Origin: an uncultured archaeon
Lineage (GTDB): Archaea; Asgardarchaeota; Lokiarchaeia; Sigyniarchaeales; SOKP01
NCBI GenBank assembly: GCA_964493715.1
Contig: CAZBPC010000002.1
Location: 73,637-137,636 of the forward strand
DNA: 64,000 nucleotides
Reading direction: 5' to 3'
Below, in pieces: positions 9,003-46,152 of this stretch. Position 1 is the first letter of the stretch, and the number at the start of each line of letters is the position of its first letter. The position numbers and the translations under genes are program-made. Under the pieces are notes generated by a model. It was not told the origin of the DNA. It worked only from the letters and a program-made list of their open reading frames with translations, and ran no database searches.

Positions 9003-9578
9003 ATGTCTGAAAAAGCCAAAGAAATGGAAGAAGAATTTTCATTCAAATGTCCTATTTGTAATAGTGGAACGATCGAAATAACTAAAACAGTTTATGATAT
9101 GACTGACGGAGACAAGATGCTAATTGTTAAATTTGAATGCAATAAATGCACGTTTATAAAAAATGACGTGGTTCCATTAACAACTAGAATTGAACCCGGA
9201 ATTATATCATTACAGGTGATGAATGAAAATGATCTCAAATCTAAAGTTTATCGTTCACCAGTTGGCATATTAGAGATTCCTGAATTAGAAGTGTCAGTGG
9301 AACCGGGTCCACGTGCAGACTTTTATTATACAAATATAGAAGGAATCTTGGAGCGATTTCAGAAAGCAGTGCAAATTTATCGAAATGATCTTGATGAAAA
9401 TGAAGAAAAACAAGCAGAAATCGATGAAATATTAAATAATATTGATAAAGCTATGAAGGGTGATTTTAATTTCACCTTAAAGATAACTGATACGGGTGGA
9501 GGTAGCTATATAATTCCTCAAGATGAATCAAAATATTCCTTTCAAAAAATAGATCTTCCTTTAACCATGGATGAGTAA
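9003..9578 (+). CDS. ZPR1-type zinc finger protein
   Basis: CPIC...CNKC, IPELEVSVEPG, TNIEGIL, FTLKITDTGGGSYI. Confidence 0.88.
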   Translation: MSEKAKEMEEEFSFKCPICNSGTIEITKTVYDMTDGDKMLIVKFECNKCTFIKNDVVPLTTRIEPGIISLQVMNENDLKSKVYRSPVGILEIPELEVSVEPGPRADFYYTNIEGILERFQKAVQIYRNDLDENEEKQAEIDEILNNIDKAMKGDFNFTLKITDTGGGSYIIPQDESKYSFQKIDLPLTMDE

Positions 9579-10016
9579 AAAAGGAACATCATAATTTATT
9601 TGAATAGTTAATACTACTATGAGCTTTATTTTTCTTAAAAAATAAATTGAGATTTATAAAGATATAAAGATAAAAAATATTGAATAAATTTAATTTAAAA
9701 TTAAGATGGTGAATTAACAGAGAAGATTTGAAGGAAATAAAAAAAATAGGAATAGATCATTATAACAGATAAAAGTGAATTTAATTGTTCAGATCCTAAT
9801 CGATCCAAAAGACAAGAAATTAATCCCGGGTTATGTTATTTTGAATATCCTTTAAATAAATCTAGAAAGGATTTTCTTGACAAAGATGTTAATTTTTTAG
9901 AGATAATAGAATCAAAACATTATAATAGATGTTTAACTGACAATATTCAGACTTATCTAAAAAGTCTTGAGGGTGAAATCAGAATTTTATTCGAACCTTT
10001 CATAGAATTTAAGAAT

Positions 10017-10973
10017 ATGGGTGCACTTTTTGGGCTTCATAATAATTACATGCCAAATAATAGGATGTATAAAAATTGTAAAAAAATTATAGCTAAAAGT
10101 ACTTTAGATGAAATGCGAGTTAATTTCAAAAAAAATATTGAAAATTACACAAAGAAATTTCCACATTTGGTAGAGTTATTATTATTGTTTCATTCTGAAA
10201 TTTTGAAATTTATTAATGAATATGAGATAATTCTTCAACCAAAACCTACTCCAGATTATCAAATGTTCAATCACCATCCTAATCTTAAAAGAGATTATTT
10301 TGAAATAATTGATACATATGAAAAAGCGTACTGGCTTGGATTTCTATTTGCTGATGGATGGATAGCAATAGAACATAAAAAATCTGGAGATTATTATCGA
10401 ATGGGGCTCCAATTATCATATAAAGACAAGGATGTGCTTCAGAGGTTTTGTAAAAGTATTGGATTAAATCCTAAATATATAAAAAATCGTCTTGTTGGAA
10501 GTGATTTTAGCACAAAATTATATCATATAGGTGAAATTAGATGGGGAGATCAAAAAATAGCTCAAGATCTTGTAAAATTAGGGATAATATATGGATACAG
10601 TGAACAAAAAGGAAGGCGCGTTAAAACCCCTAGACTTCCAATACTACAGAACCGAAAACTGATGTTGGCATTTTTATCAGGTTTCTATGATGGTGATGGC
10701 ACTCTTGGATTTGATAAGAAGACAGGCAAAATTCGTCCAAGAATTGCCTCTTCTGAAATAGACTTTTTACATCAAATAAAGCAATATTTCGGAATAAAGT
10801 ATCAAATTTCTACAACAGAAATGGTTAAATTTAATATAAGAACAGAGAAAATGGTTAATATAATAGGTAGTAGACTAGATGTTGATAAAGAAATATTTAA
10901 AGAAATGTTAAGTATATTTAAGAATAGTCTTGAAAGAAAGAGAGTTCCAATAGATTTCTTTAATGAAAAATAG
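10017..10973 (+). CDS. Free-standing two-motif LAGLIDADG homing endonuclease-like protein (frame open upstream to about 9756)
   Basis: YWLGFLFADG and FLSGFYDGDG helices; no intein or intron context visible. Confidence 0.8.
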   Translation: MGALFGLHNNYMPNNRMYKNCKKIIAKSTLDEMRVNFKKNIENYTKKFPHLVELLLLFHSEILKFINEYEIILQPKPTPDYQMFNHHPNLKRDYFEIIDTYEKAYWLGFLFADGWIAIEHKKSGDYYRMGLQLSYKDKDVLQRFCKSIGLNPKYIKNRLVGSDFSTKLYHIGEIRWGDQKIAQDLVKLGIIYGYSEQKGRRVKTPRLPILQNRKLMLAFLSGFYDGDGTLGFDKKTGKIRPRIASSEIDFLHQIKQYFGIKYQISTTEMVKFNIRTEKMVNIIGSRLDVDKEIFKEMLSIFKNSLERKRVPIDFFNEK

Positions 10974-11057
10974 CAAGTTTTTTTTATAGATTGCTTTCTT
11001 ATTAAAATTGTAAGTATTTAGGAGAAAAATTTGAATAGAATTAAAAAGGTAGATTTA

Positions 11058-12244
11058 ATGGCTAAAAATGTAAAGCGAATAGGAATTTTAACGGGTGGTG
11101 GAGTTTCATTTAAGATACATCTTTTTGAACCACAGACTGTCCCGGATTAAATTCAGTGATTTATGGGATAATGCTGAAAGCTTACGATGCGGATGTAGAA
11201 TGCGTAGGAATTCTAAAAGGATGGAAAGGTTTTGTTGAAAATTTAACGATTCCCTTAAACATTGCAGAACATGACGATCTTCATACCAAGGGAGGGACAA
11301 TATTGTATACAAGTCGTACTAATCCATTTAAAGGAGTTGAGGCTAAAGAGGAAAAAGCAAAGCAATTAACTAATCAATTCAATGTGTTAGGTATAGATGC
11401 ATTAATTGCTATCGGTGGAGATGATACTCTTGGAGTAGCAGATACCATGTATAAAATTGCTAATGCAAATGTAGTAGGGGTTCCAAAAACGATAGATAAT
11501 GACTTGAAGGGTACTCATTACACTTTTGGGTTCTGGAGCGCTGTACAATTAGCTTCTAATGCGATGGATAATCTCACAACAACCGCACGTTCACACCAGC
11601 GTGTTTTTGTAGTTGAGATTATGGGAAGAGATGCTGGTTTTTTAACCATGTATAGTGGAATTTCAGCAGGAGCTGATATAATATTGGTTCCTGAAACCCC
11701 CTTTAGTTTAGAAAAAGATATTGTTGACGTACTCAAAAAAAGAGCTAATGCTGGGTATAAATATCACATCATTGCCACATCTGAAGGAGCTCATCCTCAT
11801 ATCGATTCATTAAATCGAGATTTCAAGACAATTTCAAAGGAAACAATTGATAAATTACCTAAAGATACATTTGGGAATCCTTTATTAGCAAAGTTAAACA
11901 TTTCACAAATTATCGTTGATGAATTAAATTTAAGAGACGATCTAAAAGAAGTATTTCTCCAAAATGACGTCGAATTCGAATGCAGGAGCGTAGTTTTGGG
12001 ACATACAATGCGAGCTGGAACACCTAATTCGTTCGATAGAATTTTGGGATTGAGATTTGGATTAGCAGCCATGAATATGGTTTTAGAGTCTAAATTTGGG
12101 AACATGGTTTCGCTTCAAGGTAATAAAATTAAAACCATGCCGCTTTCGGAAGGGGTAAAAAAGAAATATATTACCTCAGATAGTGATAAAATGGAATTAA
12201 GAGATTTACTTGTAAAAGTGCGGTATCTATCGAAACAAAAATAG
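11058..12244 (+). CDS. pfp: PPi-dependent phosphofructokinase (PfkA superfamily), 384 aa after removal of intron 11104-11135
   Basis: Spliced N-terminus MAKNVKRIGILTGGGDCPGLNSVI; GGTILYTSR, GGDDT and PKTIDND (Asp/Lys signature of PPi-type enzymes), EIMGRDAG, LGHTMRAG. Confidence 0.9.
11104..11135 (+). other. 32-nt bulge-helix-bulge (archaeal tRNA-type) intron in pfk mRNA
   Basis: Central helix GTGG 11098-11101 / CCAC 11130-11133; bulges AGT 11102-11104 and AGA 11134-11136; inner stem TTCA/TGAA plus AAGA/TCTT hairpin; removal gives GGA GAC TGT (G-D-C). Confidence 0.88.
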
Positions 12245-12266
12245 AATTTTACGTCATTTTTTATAT

Positions 12267-12350
12267 TTATCCGAACTGCTTTTCTTCTTCCACATCGCTA
12301 TCAAGAGTATTTTTCTCTAAATATCTGTCAAGCCCATTTTACGTTAGAAT
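12267..12350 (-). pseudogene. Diverged remnant of the acyl-CoA dehydrogenase 3' end
   Basis: Translates to ..LDRYLEKNTLDSDVEEEKQFG*, versus ..[21 protein letters not shown] of gene 13709-14953. Confidence 0.8.
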
Positions 12351-12450
12351 ACCACTTCCAGAAGGGGTAAAAAAGAAATATATTACCTCGGATAGTGATA
12401 AAATGGAATTAAAAGATTTGCTGGTAAAAGTTAGAGATTCATCTAAAAAA
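12349..12450 (+). repeat. Diverged direct repeat of the pfk 3' end (12137-12244)
   Basis: 12361-12432 versus 12149-12220: 5 mismatches in 72 nt, 4 of them synonymous; encodes EGVKKKYITSDSDKMELKDLLVKV. Confidence 0.9.
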
Positions 12451-13614
12451 TTAAAATATTAAATCCTTAGGCCTAACATCAGGAGCTTTAAGAAGAATTA
12501 ACCCTGATATAACCGTTATACAAGCTGCTACTGCAAAAGGAGTCCATCCTATTATTTCTATTAGTGATCCTCCTCTCATTATTGTAATACTTGATAAATC
12601 TACAATATATCCCATAAATATCGGACCAAACACAAAACCTATATCTCCAATCGTACGATACACGCCCATATAAATTTCAAGTTTATCCTGAGGCGCAATA
12701 TCAGTCACATAAGCAGCTATTGGCCCTGAAAGCCCAATCAAAGCTCCATAAATAAACATAACAAAAGAAATGTAAATCAGATTTGAAGTAAAAGGAATCC
12801 AAAGGGTTACTGGTGCAGAAACGACAAGTGATAATAAAAGAGGAGTTCGTCGCCCAATTTTGTCTGAAATCAAGCCAATAGGTAACATGGTAATTGTAGT
12901 TGCAATAGCCGCTATGGTTAATAATATACCAATATCAAATTCATTTAAACCAAGGTTATTACCCGAAAAAAGTGGTACAAGAGTGTTTCGCACTCCCGTC
13001 CGTATAAAGAATAACGAAAAAATTGAGGGAAGAACTGGAATGAATGATGGATCTCTTAAACTGAACCTTACTTGATGATAGAGATCTTGAATCTTAATAG
13101 GTTCCTTTTCATTCGAATTATTCACTCTTGGCAACGTAAGAGTGGGAACGATCCCTATAGCAGATATAATAGCATAAGCAAAAAATGGAGCGTTTATACC
13201 ATATAAATCTGCAATAAAACCACCAAAACTTGGCCCAAAAATGGATCCCAATAATAAAAAACCAGAATAAATGCTCATTAAAAAACCTCGTCTTTCTGGG
13301 CTAGCAACTAATGCAATAAAAATGGTTGCAATTGTTACATAAATTGCAGAACCAAAACCTTCAATAAATCGAGCTAAAAGTAAAATCCAATAATATTGAG
13401 CTGATCCCGCCAAAATTGAGGATCCCGATATGAGTATTAATCCCAAAAGCATCAAATTCTTTTTATTATATCTTTGAGATAAGAAACCAGCTGGTAAATC
13501 AATGAACATGCGAGCAATTCCAAATGCAGACACCACAAGTCCAATAAGCGTATAATTAACATTAAAAGATTCGGCATAAAAAGGTAAAATTGGAGCAATT
13601 ATGCTTAATCCCAA
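12451..13614 (-). CDS. MFS transporter (DHA1-like); frame and first TM helix extend upstream to an ATA at 13671
   Basis: About 12 hydrophobic segments, ARFIEGFG, GLISDKIGRR. Confidence 0.88.
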   Translation of the reverse strand: MGLSIIAPILPFYAESFNVNYTLIGLVVSAFGIARMFIDLPAGFLSQRYNKKNLMLLGLILISGSSILAGSAQYYWILLLARFIEGFGSAIYVTIATIFIALVASPERRGFLMSIYSGFLLLGSIFGPSFGGFIADLYGINAPFFAYAIISAIGIVPTLTLPRVNNSNEKEPIKIQDLYHQVRFSLRDPSFIPVLPSIFSLFFIRTGVRNTLVPLFSGNNLGLNEFDIGILLTIAAIATTITMLPIGLISDKIGRRTPLLLSLVVSAPVTLWIPFTSNLIYISFVMFIYGALIGLSGPIAAYVTDIAPQDKLEIYMGVYRTIGDIGFVFGPIFMGYIVDLSSITIMRGGSLIEIIGWTPFAVAACITVISGLILLKAPDVRPKDLIF

Positions 13615-15175: not shown

Positions 15176-16422
15176 ATGTTTACAAAAATAAAAAAAAATT
15201 ATAAGAAATACCCAAATCCATTTAAAGTTCTGATTCTCGCCACATTCATCGATAGATTTGGAGGTTTTTTATTATTTCCCTTTTTTTCAGTGTCTCTTAT
15301 AGAACATTTTAAAGTAACAATAATTGAGGTAGGATTTTTATTTTCTATATTTGCTGGTGGAAGCATAATTGGTAGTACGATAGGAGGAGCATTAACTGAT
15401 AAATATGGCCGTCGTTCGATGCTGTTATTAGGTTTAATTTCAAGTGGAATTGGTAGTATCTTAATGGGTATAGTTAACGATTTATATCTTTTTTTATACT
15501 AGCAGCAGTTTTAGGCACATTAGGAGACTTGGGAGGTCCAGCCCGGCAAGCAATGGTTGTGGATTTACTTCCAGAAGATAGACGAGCAGATGGATTTGGA
15601 TTATTACGAGTGGCTGTAAATCTCGCAGCAGTAATGGGACCAATTCTTGGTGGAATGTTGCTAAATAGTTCATATCTGTTCTTATTTATATTAGACGCAG
15701 TATGTCGCTTAATTACTGCCTTAATTGTATTCATAGTCATTCCAGAAACAAAACCTGAAAAACCAGAAGGCAAACTGGAAGAATCTGTAATGAAAACTAT
15801 AGCTGGATATGAGGAGGTCCTTAAAGATGGATTGTATATATCATTTCTTTCCATTTCTGCTTTGACGGTACTAGTTTACATGCAAATGAGCAGTACGTTA
15901 TCGGTATTTTTGTGGGACGTGTACGAGTTTCCATTAAGCTTGTTTGGTGTGTTGTTGAGTATGAATGCGCTGATGGTGGTATTCTTTCAGTTCTTGATAA
16001 CTAGAATGACCGCAAAGTATGCACCCATGAAAATGATGGCTTTCGGCACACTTCTTTATATGATTGGTTTTGGGATGTATGGTTTTGTCTCCTTACCATA
16101 CTTGTTTTTCGTGGCTATGGCAATTCTAACAGTTGGAGAAATGATTGTAATACCCGTATCACAAGCTACAGTAGCTCATTTTGCTTCTGAAGATAAACGA
16201 GGGCGATATATGGCAGTGTTTGGTTTTCACTGGTCGATTCCAACCTTATTTGGAGTCTCAGCTGCTAGTTTTGTCTATATTTCGCTTGGTCCGAATTGGG
16301 TATGATATTTAGCTGGAATTTTATGCCTGATTGCTATCATCGGTTTTTTAATACTCAATGGTATCGCAAAAGATCGTTTTTCGAATCCGACAGAAATTTT
16401 GGTTGAAAAATTTAGTGAATAA
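15176..16422 (+). pseudogene. MFS transporter pseudogene (frameshift in T-run near 15489-15495; internal TGA at 16303-16305)
   Basis: GALTDKYGRR in the first half; the second frame continues ILAAVLGTLGDLGGPARQA; the last TM helix (YLAGILCLIAIIGFLIL) follows the TGA and runs to TAA at 16420-16422. Confidence 0.8.
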
Positions 16423-45495: not shown

Positions 45496-46152
45496 ATGCT
45501 AATGATTCAAGGTAATGAAGTATCTTTAGAAGCGGAGATTTTTCAGTCAGGAAATGAATTTAACAATACTGTAGTCTTAATATGCCATCCTCATCCTCAA
45601 TTTCTGTAGGGTTTCCTAAGAAAGGGAAAATATGGAGGATCGATGCATAATAATGTTATATCTTATATTTTCAATCATTTAGTTAAAAATGATATCTCGT
45701 GTTTACGTTTCAATTTCAGAGGTGTAGAAAGATCAACTGGAAAACATTCAGGAGGAAGTGGAGAGTTATCTGATGTTCATAGTTGTATTACATTTCTCCA
45801 AAAAAGAGAGATACAAAGGATAATAATATGTGGGTATTCTTATGGTGCCGCTATCGGATGCTCAGCTGTAAATTTTTCAGAATCAATCATAGGATTCTGC
45901 GCGATTTCTTTTCCGTGGGATTTTATGGGAAAAAATTACAAAAATCTCTCACAAACTGAAAAACCTAAACTATTTATTCAAGGGGATCAAGATTCTATTG
46001 CTAGTTTTGATAATTTCTTGTCTCATTATAATTTCTATAAGGAACCCAAAGAAAAAATTATTATCAAGGGAGCTGATCACTTCTATTGGGGATTAGAAGG
46101 AATTTTAGCAGATAAAGTGGTTAAATTTGTAAAAAAGTTCAATCCATCTTAA
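45496..46152 (+). CDS. Alpha/beta hydrolase (HPHP-x-x-GG-x-M family), 208 aa after removal of intron 45600-45629
   Basis: Spliced ..ICHPHPQYGGSMHNNV; RFNFRGV, GYSYG nucleophile, QGDQD, GADHF. Confidence 0.88.
45600..45629 (+). other. 30-nt bulge-helix-bulge intron in alpha/beta hydrolase mRNA
   Basis: Central helix TCCT 45594-45597 / GGGA 45624-45627 (one G-U); bulges CAA and AAA; inner stem TTTCT/AGAAA plus TAGG-gttt-CCTA; contains in-frame TAG at 45607-45609. Confidence 0.85.

What the first reader, a model, noticed from the sequence alone, without database searches (positions are those of the whole stretch)
11058..11160. 32-nt bulge-helix-bulge intron inside the phosphofructokinase GGGDCPG motif
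Seen in sequence: ATG 11058 reads MAKNVKRIGILTGGG, then 32 extra nt shift the frame (unspliced stop TAA at 11148-11150), then DCPGLNSVI resumes. The region folds into a BHB: central 4-bp helix GTGG/CCAC, 3-nt bulges AGT and AGA on opposite strands, inner stem TTCA/TGAA with an AAGA-taca-TCTT hairpin, and outer exon pairing G11097-C11137 plus CGGG/CCCG. Established: the archaeal splicing endonuclease EndA cuts after the second base of each bulge and RtcB ligates. Applying that rule joins GGAG to ACTGT and restores G-D-C exactly. BHB introns in archaeal mRNAs are known mainly from crenarchaeal cbf5. Inference: a central glycolytic enzyme in an Asgard archaeon is expressed by tRNA-type mRNA splicing.
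Basis: partly seen in the sequence, partly recalled or inferred. Interest (0 to 1): 0.95.

Follow-up and report, generated by a model that had tools for sequence, protein, structure and literature searches.

The report
tRNA-type mini-intron in Asgard phosphofructokinase gene
The only phosphofructokinase gene of this Asgard (Lokiarchaeia-like) archaeon is interrupted by a 32-base intron shaped like a tRNA intron, and the same kind of ~30-base intron sits in several other essential genes of the genome, so tRNA-type splicing of messenger RNAs looks routine in this lineage.

Summary
The pfk gene starts at 11058.

The fold alone is not significant (z = -0.26), and BHB-like hairpins are no commoner in this AT-rich genome than mirror-image ones. 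The comparative evidence is strong:
- 32 related Asgard alleles (16 of 80 genome loci, 16 of 77 informative metagenome loci) carry a 31-32-nt insert at the same codon.
- All 32 keep the 4-bp helix, with compensatory changes.
- Carriers are under the same purifying selection as intron-less alleles (dN/dS 0.051 vs 0.050).
- pfk is single-copy, and both EndA subunit genes and RtcB are present.

The intron is not unique. At least six more genes of this genome carry 29-32-nt BHB inserts whose removal joins Pfam profile coordinates exactly: RtcB itself, LeuRS, aEF-2, NadE, CdhD and a thiolase.

Relative to its nearest relatives (about 95% DNA identity), the window has gained a 1.5-kb block holding the genome's only LAGLIDADG endonuclease gene, pfk exon 1 and the intron. 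This suggests homing-like mobility.

No RNA data could be obtained, so splicing itself is inferred.

The parts
11058..11103 (+). pfk exon 1 (15 codons plus the first base of the Asp codon): MAKNVKRIGILTGGG + G
   Evidence: Orthologue N-termini ..[IV]GILTGGGDCPG...
11104..11135 (+). 32-nt BHB intron (third nt of the 5' bulge, the inner hairpin, the 3' strand of the central helix, and the first two nt of the 3' bulge)
   Evidence: Homologous 31-32-nt inserts at the same codon in 32 related alleles.
11136..12244 (+). pfk exon 2 (AC of the Asp codon, then CPGLNSV... to the stop)
   Evidence: PF00365 E 1.4e-82. TIGR02483 / NF002872 from profile position 11-12.
11098..11101 (+). central helix H, 5' strand (GUGG, exon 1, Gly codons); pairs with 11130-11133 (CCAC, intron)
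   Evidence: 4 of 4 pairs in 32 of 32 related alleles. U-A here and in 2 relatives against C-G in 30. Pair 11-44 of alignment A1 is compensatory.
11102..11104 (+). 5' bulge AGU; predicted cut between 11103 and 11104
   Evidence: Cleavage rule from PMC2738675 passages.
11134..11136 (+). 3' bulge AGA; predicted cut between 11135 and 11136
11105..11129 (+). inner helix h' (UUCA 11105-08 / UGAA 11126-29) with a terminal hairpin (11112-15 / 11120-23)
   Evidence: The first two h' pairs are kept in 32 of 32 alleles, with both-side changes.
11092..11097 (+). outer (exon-exon) helix h, 5' strand: CGGG 11092-95 pairs with CCCG 11141-44; G11097 pairs with C11137
   Evidence: Helix 1 has 98% of cells paired and helix 2 has 100%.
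10017..10973 (+). free-standing LAGLIDADG endonuclease gene 85 nt upstream of pfk
   Evidence: PF14528 / PF00961. It is the only PF14528 match in the genome. Homologues or remnants lie upstream of pfk only in intron-bearing alleles.
9614..11133 (+). 1.5-kb block with no counterpart in the nearest relatives (77 nt there instead): LAGLIDADG gene, pfk upstream region, exon 1 and intron
   Evidence: blastn of the window against L133-L135. Sequences read.
9003..9578 (+). ZPR1-like zinc-finger gene, the conserved upstream neighbour of pfk
   Evidence: TIGR00340. It is found upstream on the same strand in 62 of 63 intron-less loci, and 117-169 nt from the CPG codon in 60 of those 62.

Best explanation
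The 32 nt at 11104-11135 are an archaeal bulge-helix-bulge (tRNA-type) intron inside the single pfk gene of an Asgard archaeon.

Proposed mechanism. In the pre-mRNA, the Gly codons of exon 1 pair with the 3' end of the intron to form the 4-bp central helix. Two 3-nt bulges flank this helix. The heteromeric (alpha-beta)2 splicing endonuclease EndA cuts after the second base of each bulge. RtcB joins the exons (GGA G + AC UGU), which restores GGGDCPG and the reading frame. Without splicing, only a 30-residue peptide, or an N-terminally truncated protein lacking the motif, could be made.

Shown here: the anatomy of the insert; its conservation at the same codon; covariation in the helices; purifying selection on carriers; single copy of the gene; presence of the enzyme genes; and a class of equivalent introns in other genes of the genome.

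Inferred: the cleavage and ligation themselves.
For: 1. Anatomy. The insert and the fold are as described.

2. Same-site inserts in independent assemblies. 16 of 80 species-level genome loci carry one (63 are intron-less, 1 is masked by N). So do 16 of 77 informative metagenome loci (3 of the 80 gave no motif).

3. Structure anchored on homology-defined borders. 32 of 32 alleles form all 4 central-helix pairs, the adjacent outer pair and the first two inner pairs. Helix types seen are GCGG/UCGU, GCGG/CCGU, GCGG/CCGC, GCGG/UCGC and GUGG/CCAC.

4. Covariation in alignment A1 (17 rows, 15 distinct). 99.4% of cells are paired, against 33-54% when partners are slid. Three pairs change on both sides. 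0 of 500 shuffles reach the covariation score.

5. Exon constraint. All 16 genome-derived carriers use one sequence for the Gly codons plus the first base of the Asp codon. The 63 intron-less alleles use 34 different 12-mers (Gly codons plus the whole Asp codon).

6. Selection. Median dN/dS is 0.051 for carrier pairs (63 pairs) and 0.050 for intron-less pairs (872 pairs).

7. Copy number. The genome, 100% complete by marker count, has one PF00365 match.

8. Machinery. There are two PF01974 genes. One has a Tyr/His/Lys pattern and one lacks the His (this motif is recalled). RtcB is present. Passages of PMC5829648 state that Asgard archaea have (alpha-beta)2 EndA with the L1 loop linked to broad specificity.

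9. The same class in other genes. Removing the BHB insert joins Pfam profile positions as follows:
- RtcB 1-47|48-426 (found without any BHB search)
- NadE 143|144
- LeuRS 46|48
- aEF-2 37|48
- CdhD 178|181
- thiolase 49|52

10. Frame-restoration test. Among frame-restoring hits with a 9/9 inner stem and length 29-32, 10 fall at the correct cut offset and 2-3 at each shifted offset.

11. Other introns in other assemblies. The RtcB intron recurs with its pairs kept in G074. The LeuRS intron recurs in 2 of 29 other loci.
Against: - No RNA evidence: no sequencing run was listed.
- The fold is not more stable than shuffles (z -0.26).
- BHB-like motifs are not enriched genome-wide over the mirror topology. 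Loose frame-restoration counts show no excess at the correct offset.
- RNAalifold prefers another register for the GGCGGCGG repeat (columns 8-13 with 39-44). That register is not a BHB, although three of its pairs are broken in 1-2 of the 17 sequences.
- The outer helix next to the 3' bulge is only 1 bp before an internal loop.
- RtcB, the ligase, is itself interrupted, so its supply depends on its own activity.
- Of 18 BHB-scan candidates taken to Pfam, 3 were simply adjacent genes and 2 were not contiguous. The scan alone is therefore unreliable.
Confidence: 0.85

Rival explanations
1. The insert is a small hairpin-forming mobile insertion that inactivated pfk. The gene is a pseudogene, or is expressed only as an N-terminally truncated protein from GTG 11156 or ATG 11171.
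For: Gene callers treat carrier alleles this way: P0033 is labelled 'partial' and P0108/P0109 start at MLKA. The unspliced frame is broken. AT-rich hairpins are common in this genome.
Against: - dN/dS is 0.051 in carriers, equal to intron-less alleles, with dS about 1.8.
- Exon 1 is intact with its ATG in the carriers.
- The gene is single-copy.
- The same kind of insert sits in LeuRS, aEF-2 and RtcB, which cannot all be dead in a genome that is 100% complete by marker count.
- The exon Gly codons covary with the insert.
- A truncated protein would lack the GGGDCPG motif.
Confidence: 0.05
2. The ribosome bypasses the 32 nt (translational hopping as in phage T4 gene 60) or shifts frame, with no RNA splicing.
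For: A hairpin follows a GGA codon, as in gene 60 (recalled). The frame is restored by skipping a fixed number of bases.
Against: - No matching landing codon gives GGGDCPG. The next GGA (11144-46) would delete D-C-P-G, and relatives have GGG/GGT/GGC there.
- The insert boundaries fit the BHB cut rule in 32 of 32 alleles.
- The other introns have unrelated flanking codons.
Confidence: 0.03
3. The insert is removed from the RNA, but by something other than EndA/RtcB: another endonuclease, or Ire1-like or self-cleaving chemistry.
For: No enzyme assay exists. The second pfk intron found in relatives has only 2-3 of 4 central-helix pairs. The outer helix here is weak.
Against: The geometry is exactly that of EndA substrates: 3-nt bulges 4 bp apart, with junctions after the second bulge base. 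Both enzymes are encoded. The genome's tRNA genes carry introns of the same size, four of them 29-30 nt.
Confidence: 0.05
4. Assembly or sequencing artefact.
For: The genome is a 160-contig assembly.
Against: Homologous inserts occur at the same codon in 32 independently assembled alleles.
Confidence: 0.01

Closest known systems
cbf5 pre-mRNA intron of Crenarchaeota (Desulfurococcales, Sulfolobales); PMC2738675, passages read
   Same: [quoted passage not shown] Cleavage is between the 2nd and 3rd bulge residues by a hetero-oligomeric EndA. It lies between the 1st and 2nd letter of an Asp codon in a catalytic motif. Its distribution implies gain and loss. It is too short to encode an endonuclease.
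   Different: Different gene (pfk), different phylum (Asgard), and at least seven interrupted genes in one genome instead of one. Here H is a full 4-bp helix, while most cbf5 structures are described as unconventional. A LAGLIDADG gene lies beside the interrupted gene here.
Archaeal tRNA introns, including the many non-canonical ones of Asgard tRNA genes (bioRxiv 10.64898/2026.10.13.758758: abstract and two passages seen)
   Same: The same motif and presumably the same enzymes. The same size class occurs in this genome: ARAGORN reports tRNA introns of 11-39 nt, four of them 29-30 nt.
   Different: The host RNA is an mRNA. The exon strand of the helix is made of codons, so protein coding and RNA pairing constrain the same bases.
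Archaeal rRNA introns that carry LAGLIDADG homing endonucleases (stated in PMC2738675 passages; I-DmoI is recalled)
   Same: A BHB-spliced intron associated with a LAGLIDADG endonuclease and with patchy, mobile-like distribution.
   Different: There the endonuclease ORF lies inside a long intron. Here the intron has no ORF and the endonuclease gene stands free, 130 nt upstream.
Free-standing homing endonuclease beside an ORF-less intron: cyanophage S-PM2 psbA / F-CphI (PMC6083498, listing and abstract only) and T4 mobE trans-homing (PMC2790892, abstract only). The term 'collaborative homing' is recalled.
   Same: Endonuclease gene next to the interrupted gene, an intron without an ORF, and a block of foreign flanking sequence.
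   Different: Those are self-splicing group I introns in phages. Cleavage of the intron-less site is shown there and untested here.
XBP1/HAC1 unconventional mRNA splicing in eukaryotes (recalled; mentioned in the abstract of PMC12530127)
   Same: A very short frame-shifting intron in an mRNA is removed by an endonuclease that cuts in RNA loops, and the exons are joined by RtcB (animals).
   Different: The endonuclease is Ire1, not a tRNA-splicing endonuclease, and the event is regulated by stress. No regulation is shown here.

Membership tests
Archaeal BHB (EndA-dependent) intron | Two 3-nt bulges on opposite strands separated by a 4-bp helix | tested here: met
   The MFE fold gives GUGG/CCAC between AGU and AGA. 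4 of 4 pairs in 32 of 32 related alleles. 100% of helix-3 cells paired.
Archaeal BHB (EndA-dependent) intron | Cuts between the 2nd and 3rd bulge residues give the functional junction | tested here: met
   Rule from PMC2738675 passages. Applied to 11102-04 and 11134-36, it restores GGGDCPG as in intron-less orthologues.
Archaeal BHB (EndA-dependent) intron | Flanking helices h (exon-exon) and h' (intron) | tested here: met
   h' is 4 bp plus a hairpin. h is 1 bp, then an internal loop, then 4 bp, so it is relaxed on the outer side.
Archaeal BHB (EndA-dependent) intron | Structure kept by compensatory change | tested here: met
   Three pairs change on both sides; 0 of 500 shuffles reach the covariation score. 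Exon GGT/GGC covaries with intron A/G within the window-like family. Caveat: RNAalifold offers another register.
Archaeal BHB (EndA-dependent) intron | Host encodes the splicing endonuclease and RtcB ligase | tested here: met
   Two PF01974 genes and one PF01139 gene, itself split by a 29-nt BHB insert.
Archaeal BHB (EndA-dependent) intron | Spliced RNA, excised or circular intron, or cleavage by EndA observed | not testable with these tools
   No RNA run was listed.
Phosphofructokinase (PF00365) | PFK domain with the N-terminal GGGDCPG(L)N motif | tested here: met
   Exon 2 matches PF00365 positions 11-276 of 277. The motif is complete only after the 32 nt are removed.
Mobile intron spread with a homing endonuclease | Endonuclease gene in or beside the intron | tested here: met
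   LAGLIDADG gene at 10017-10973, the only PF14528 hit in the genome.
Mobile intron spread with a homing endonuclease | Patchy distribution and foreign flanks ending at the insertion site | tested here: met
   Scattered on the PFK tree. Block 9614-11133 is absent from relatives that are about 95% identical elsewhere, and homology resumes at exon 2. Intron identity is 83% against 55% at exon third codon positions.
Mobile intron spread with a homing endonuclease | Endonuclease cuts the intron-less allele at the insertion site | not testable with these tools
   Needs an enzyme assay.

The most novel reading that the evidence does not exclude
Asgard archaea of this family carry a population of mobile, minimal (~30 nt) BHB introns in mRNAs of core genes: pfk at two sites that share the same target sequence, the RNA ligase RtcB itself, LeuRS, aEF-2, NadE, CdhD and a thiolase.

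The pfk intron spreads by DNA-level homing together with a free-standing LAGLIDADG endonuclease. The endonuclease would cut intron-less pfk at the GGNGGAG|AC site. The intron would interrupt that site and so protect its carrier. Repair would copy the endonuclease gene, exon 1 and the intron as one block.

This would be the first case of an enzyme-spliced (tRNA-type) mRNA intron cooperating with a free-standing homing endonuclease, in the closest prokaryotic relatives of eukaryotes.
Probability: 0.35. Interest if true: 0.92.

Novelty: new member of a known kind. Interest (0 to 1): 0.85.

Why it matters
Introns in archaeal protein-coding genes have rested almost entirely on one gene, cbf5, in Crenarchaeota. 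Here a central carbon-metabolism gene is interrupted, together with several translation, RNA-repair and cofactor genes, in an Asgard archaeon.

- **Annotation.** Gene callers mis-annotate such genes as partial or truncated (P0033, P0108/P0109, P0043/P0071). Metabolic reconstructions of Asgard genomes may therefore wrongly score the pathways as incomplete.
- **Mechanism.** The exon strand of the recognition helix is made of Gly codons. All 16 genome-derived carriers share one Gly-codon sequence, while the 63 intron-less alleles use 34 different 12-mers. This shows RNA structure constraining synonymous sites.
- **A self-dependent ligase.** An intron inside RtcB makes the ligase depend on its own product.
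- **Evolution.** Short, frame-breaking, RtcB-ligated mRNA introns in the closest relatives of eukaryotes bear on the origin of unconventional (XBP1/HAC1-type) mRNA splicing and on how introns spread. The adjacent LAGLIDADG gene turns the long-open question of how BHB introns move into a simple nuclease assay.

Tried and rejected
**RNA evidence.** The look-up of sequencing runs (kind rna, window 10000-13000) listed no run: 'no RNA holder listed'.

**Fold significance.** Not significant (z -0.26).

**Genome-wide statistics.**
- Loose BHB plus ORF-restoration scans gave no excess at the correct cut offset. Adding structure, start-codon or codon-usage filters did not change this.
- The background is adjacent genes.
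- An excess appeared only for length 29-32 with a 9/9 inner stem: 10 hits against 2-3.
- BHB topology against mirror topology showed no excess at any length from 24 to 41.

**Candidates rejected by Pfam.**
- C3:118048-118077: thiolase followed by an unrelated ORF.
- C53:13262-13291: D-serine dehydratase-like followed by L-PSP.
- C61:613-643: FmdE followed by TauE.
- Not contiguous, so not counted: MFS gene C2:89134-89165 (profile 88|104) and a methyltransferase C90:7761-7801 (39|56).
- Never tested: C1:146274-146303 and C4:68129-68156. For C33:13413-13443 only exon 2 was scanned (Cdc6/AAA families), which left it undecided.

**Candidates only partly supported.** RNase HII, the alpha/beta hydrolase, mevalonate kinase, thiolase C145 and a TPP enzyme on C53. 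In each, the short exon gave no Pfam hit or only a weak one.

**Other rejected ideas.**
- Translational bypass: no landing codon fits.
- Rfam: no family matched in the window.
- ARAGORN: no tRNA in the window.
- The pfk 3'-end repeat as a trace of the homing event: rejected because the nearest relative L134 has it too.

**Literature.** Six searches found no paper on BHB introns in Asgard protein-coding genes. This covers only the held open-access and bioRxiv library. Supplements were not consulted.

**Technical failures.** treekit.build was killed by the sandbox limit and replaced by MAFFT plus FastTree on the C-terminal 270 residues. Four loci were dropped there for lacking the anchor motif. 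That tree has no support test.
Full report
**1. What is in the sequence**

The + strand has an ATG at 11058 that reads MAKNVKRIGILTGGG. It then leaves the expected sequence and stops at TAA 11148-11150. The frame that starts at 11138 reads CPGLNSVIYGIMLK... for 368 residues to the stop at 12242-12244.

That frame is a phosphofructokinase. It matches PF00365 with E 1.4e-82 from profile position 11, and NCBIfam PFK_mixed and PRK03202 from positions 11-12. The best 120 homologues listed are mostly 380-386 residues. Where a source names them, they come from Lokiarchaeota, Promethearchaeota and other Asgard bins. The intron-less ones I read begin ..[IV]GILTGGGDCPGLNSV... Removing exactly 11104-11135 (32 nt) therefore gives the orthologous protein.

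- outer stem 11092-95/11141-44
- 4-bp helix GUGG/CCAC
- 3-nt bulges AGU and AGA
- inner stem UUCA/UGAA with a small hairpin

**2. Is it more than chance?**

Not by folding energy: z is -0.26, and 73 of 200 shuffles fold at least as well. Not by motif frequency either. In this AT-rich 3.68-Mb genome, BHB-like arrangements with strong inner stems are as frequent as their mirror-image arrangement at every length from 24 to 41.

The signal lies in position and conservation:
- **Genome loci.** Among 80 species-level Asgard genome loci with a pfk orthologue, 16 carry a 31-nt insert at the same place, 63 have none, and one (L015) is masked by N at the site.
- **Metagenome loci.** Among 80 loci, 77 were informative. 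Of these, 16 carry a 31- or 32-nt insert and 61 do not.
- **Structure on fixed borders.** With borders anchored only on protein homology, all 32 inserts form all four central-helix pairs, the adjacent outer pair and the first two inner pairs.
- **Helix variation.** The helix changes while staying paired. It is GCGG with UCGU, CCGU, CCGC or UCGC in 30 alleles, and GUGG with CCAC in two alleles and in the window.
- **Clean covariation.** Within the window-like intron family, the exon Gly codon GGT goes with intron A (window, L146, L148). GGC goes with intron G (L175, L182).

On the 17-row alignment A1, the named structure has 99.4% of cells paired, against 33-54% when partners are slid. Three pairs change on both sides, and none of 500 shuffles reaches the covariation score.

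One result cuts the other way. RNAalifold chooses a different register for the GGCGGCGG repeat, columns 8-13 with 39-44. That register is not a BHB, and three of its pairs are broken in one or two of the 17 sequences. It could be a competing conformer.

**3. Gene or wreck?**

- **Selection.** Carrier alleles are under the same purifying selection as intron-less ones. Median dN/dS (NG86, last 273 codons) is 0.051 for 63 carrier pairs and 0.050 for 872 intron-less pairs. dS is about 1.8.
- **Exon constraint.** All 16 genome-derived carriers use one sequence for the three Gly codons plus the first base of the Asp codon. The 63 intron-less alleles use 34 different 12-mers for the same four residues. 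This is as expected if these bases must pair with the intron.
- **Copy number.** The genome is 100% complete by marker count and has a single PF00365 match.
- **Machinery.** There are two splicing-endonuclease genes. One ORF has a Tyr/His/Lys pattern and the other lacks the His (this motif is from memory). That fits the (alpha-beta)2 enzyme with the L1 loop that PMC5829648 assigns to Asgard archaea and links to broad substrate range (passages read). RtcB is present.

**4. The intron is one of a class**

The RtcB search showed the ligase gene itself split between profile positions 47 and 48 by 29 nt. The sequence folds as UUGG/CCAA between bulges AUA and AGA, with a 9-bp inner stem. The cut rule restores GVGY-DINCG. 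This case was found without any BHB search.

I then scanned the genome for BHB motifs whose removal fuses open frames. The scan is noisy, because neighbouring genes give thousands of chance hits. Only for lengths 29-32 with a perfect 9-bp inner stem is there an excess at the correct cut offset: 10 hits, against 2-3 at each shifted offset.

I took 18 candidates to Pfam, each exon as an unjoined reference. Five are clear:

| Gene | Place in G000 | Intron length | Pfam profile join |
|---|---|---|---|
| NadE | C39:8748-8777 | 30 nt | 143\|144 |
| LeuRS | C44:26027-26056 | 30 nt | 46\|48 |
| aEF-2 | C76:5211-5240, minus strand | 30 nt | 37\|48 (short exon weak, E 0.074) |
| CdhD | C8:45566-45597 | 32 nt | 178\|181 |
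| thiolase-like | C28:23007-23036 | 30 nt | 49\|52 |

Five more are likely but have exons too short to score: RNase HII, an alpha/beta hydrolase inside this window, mevalonate kinase, a second thiolase and a TPP enzyme. Three candidates were plainly adjacent unrelated genes. Two were not contiguous. Two were not tested, and a third (C33) had only exon 2 scanned, which left it undecided.

In the 12 accepted or likely introns, the first base of the 3' bulge is A in 12 of 12. The first base of the 5' bulge is A in 10 of 12.

Independent assemblies share some of these introns. The RtcB intron is in G074 with its pairs kept, and is absent from 27 of 28 informative relatives. The LeuRS intron is in 2 of 29 other loci.

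ARAGORN finds only 27 tRNA genes in this complete genome, 12 of them with introns of 11-39 nt (four of 29-30 nt). This agrees with the heavily interrupted Asgard tRNA genes described in a 2026 preprint, of which I saw the abstract and two passages.

**5. A second pfk intron in relatives**

Truncated translations, again not a BHB search, revealed a 30-nt insert inside the IGG|DDT motif. It occurs in 15 genome loci and 17 metagenome loci. The window lacks it.

The DNA target is the same at both sites (GGNGGAG|AC). This intron has a 5-bp outer helix and a 4-10-bp inner stem. Only 2-3 of its 4 central pairs form, so it is a relaxed motif.

**6. Signs of mobility**

- **Patchy distribution.** On a FastTree of the PFK C-terminal part (76 rows, no support test), both introns are scattered. 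For example, the sister alleles L024 and L017 each carry a different one.
- **Intron conservation.** The 15 introns of the main family are 83% identical, while third codon positions of the adjoining exon are 55% identical.
- **An adjacent endonuclease gene.** Directly upstream of pfk lies a 318-codon LAGLIDADG endonuclease gene (10017-10973). It has a weak match to intron-encoded I-AniI. It is the only PF14528 match in the genome.
- **Association with carriers.** Homologues or decayed remnants of this gene lie upstream of pfk in L034 (82% DNA identity), L052 (two frames), L054, L156 and L157. All five carry the intron. None was found beside any of the 124 intron-less alleles (63 genome, 61 metagenome). 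Kin are not independent, so I give no p-value.
- **Conserved neighbour displaced.** The usual upstream neighbour is a ZPR1-like gene. It lies 117-169 nt from the CPG codon in 60 of the 62 intron-less loci that have it upstream on the same strand. It is 1563 nt away in the window.
- **A foreign block.** Against the nearest relatives (L133-L135; 96-97% protein identity; 94-96% DNA identity in the L133/L134 flanks), the window has a block, 9614-11133, with no counterpart. Homology stops just after the ZPR1-like gene and resumes exactly at the start of exon 2.
- **Divergent exon 1.** Exon 1 differs from L134 at 7 of the 21 bases compared by eye, whereas exon 2 is 94% identical.

The endonuclease gene, exon 1 and the intron thus look like one acquired unit whose edge is the intron site. 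This is the pattern left by homing. The endonuclease's target is untested.

**7. Comparison with what is known**

The closest known case is the cbf5 pre-mRNA intron of Crenarchaeota. It has the same cut rule, the same kind of enzyme and a similar length. It even has the same placement, between the first and second letter of a catalytic Asp codon (PMC2738675 passages).

The present case is a new member of that kind, in a new gene and a new phylum. It differs in three ways: many genes are affected, the ~30-nt form is uniform, and an endonuclease gene lies next door.

Six literature searches in the held library found no report of such introns in Asgard protein-coding genes. Subscription journals and supplements were not visible to me.

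**8. Verdict**

This is a genuine BHB intron in pfk, spliced in all likelihood by EndA and RtcB (confidence 0.85). The missing piece is RNA or enzyme evidence. Rivals are each at or below 0.05: pseudogene, ribosomal bypass, another nuclease, artefact. The boldest reading still open is that the intron is mobile and cooperates with the free-standing LAGLIDADG endonuclease (about 0.35).

Noticed in passing
window 45496-46152 (+), insert 45600-45629: A second likely BHB mini-intron inside this window. A 30-nt insert splits an alpha/beta-hydrolase gene at ..CHPHP(Q)|YGGSMHN.., with helix UCCU/GGGA. Exon 2 matches Abhydrolase_11 from profile position 12. The 72-residue exon 1 gave no Pfam hit.
   Followed up: partly
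G000 C2:12134-12162 (minus strand; outside the window), loci L003/L004: The RNA ligase gene RtcB is itself split by a 29-nt BHB insert between Pfam positions 47 and 48, so making the ligase would require the ligase. The same intron is in G074 (L125). It is absent from 27 of 28 informative relatives.
   Followed up: yes
loci L013, L020, L024, L031, L041, L043 and others (15 genome and 17 metagenome loci): Relatives carry a second, 30-nt pfk intron inside the IGG|DDT motif. Its DNA target (GGNGGAG|AC) is the same as at the first site. Its central helix has only 2-3 of 4 pairs.
   Followed up: yes
window 12137-12238 and 12349-12450: The last 102 nt of pfk are repeated 110 nt downstream of the stop at 84% identity, a relic of a pfk 3' end. 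The nearest relative L134 also has such a relic, separated from pfk by about 1.1 kb that the window lacks.
   Followed up: partly
window 11405-11420 and 11480-11500 (IGGDDT and PKTIDND): The residues Asp in GGDD and Lys in PKTIDND are, from memory, the signature of pyrophosphate-dependent rather than ATP-dependent phosphofructokinases. Sources name the homologues ATP-dependent. NCBIfam places the protein in the mixed PFK subfamily, below its cut-off.
   Followed up: no
whole genome G000: ARAGORN finds only 27 tRNA genes in a genome that is 100% complete by markers, 12 of them with introns. Many tRNA genes are probably hidden by non-canonical introns.
   Followed up: no
locus L015 (CP070831.1) around position 1400-1500; G003: The stretch homologous to the finding reads as about 100 N in this record. 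Its protein P0033 is annotated 'partial' and starts at YGIMLK, as expected for an intron carrier. It was left uncounted.
   Followed up: no
window 15498-15529 (+) (G000 C2:89134-89165): An MFS transporter gene is broken here. A 32-nt BHB-like insert would fuse the frames, but the Pfam coordinates do not join (88|104). This may be a different lesion, or the borders may be wrongly placed.
   Followed up: partly
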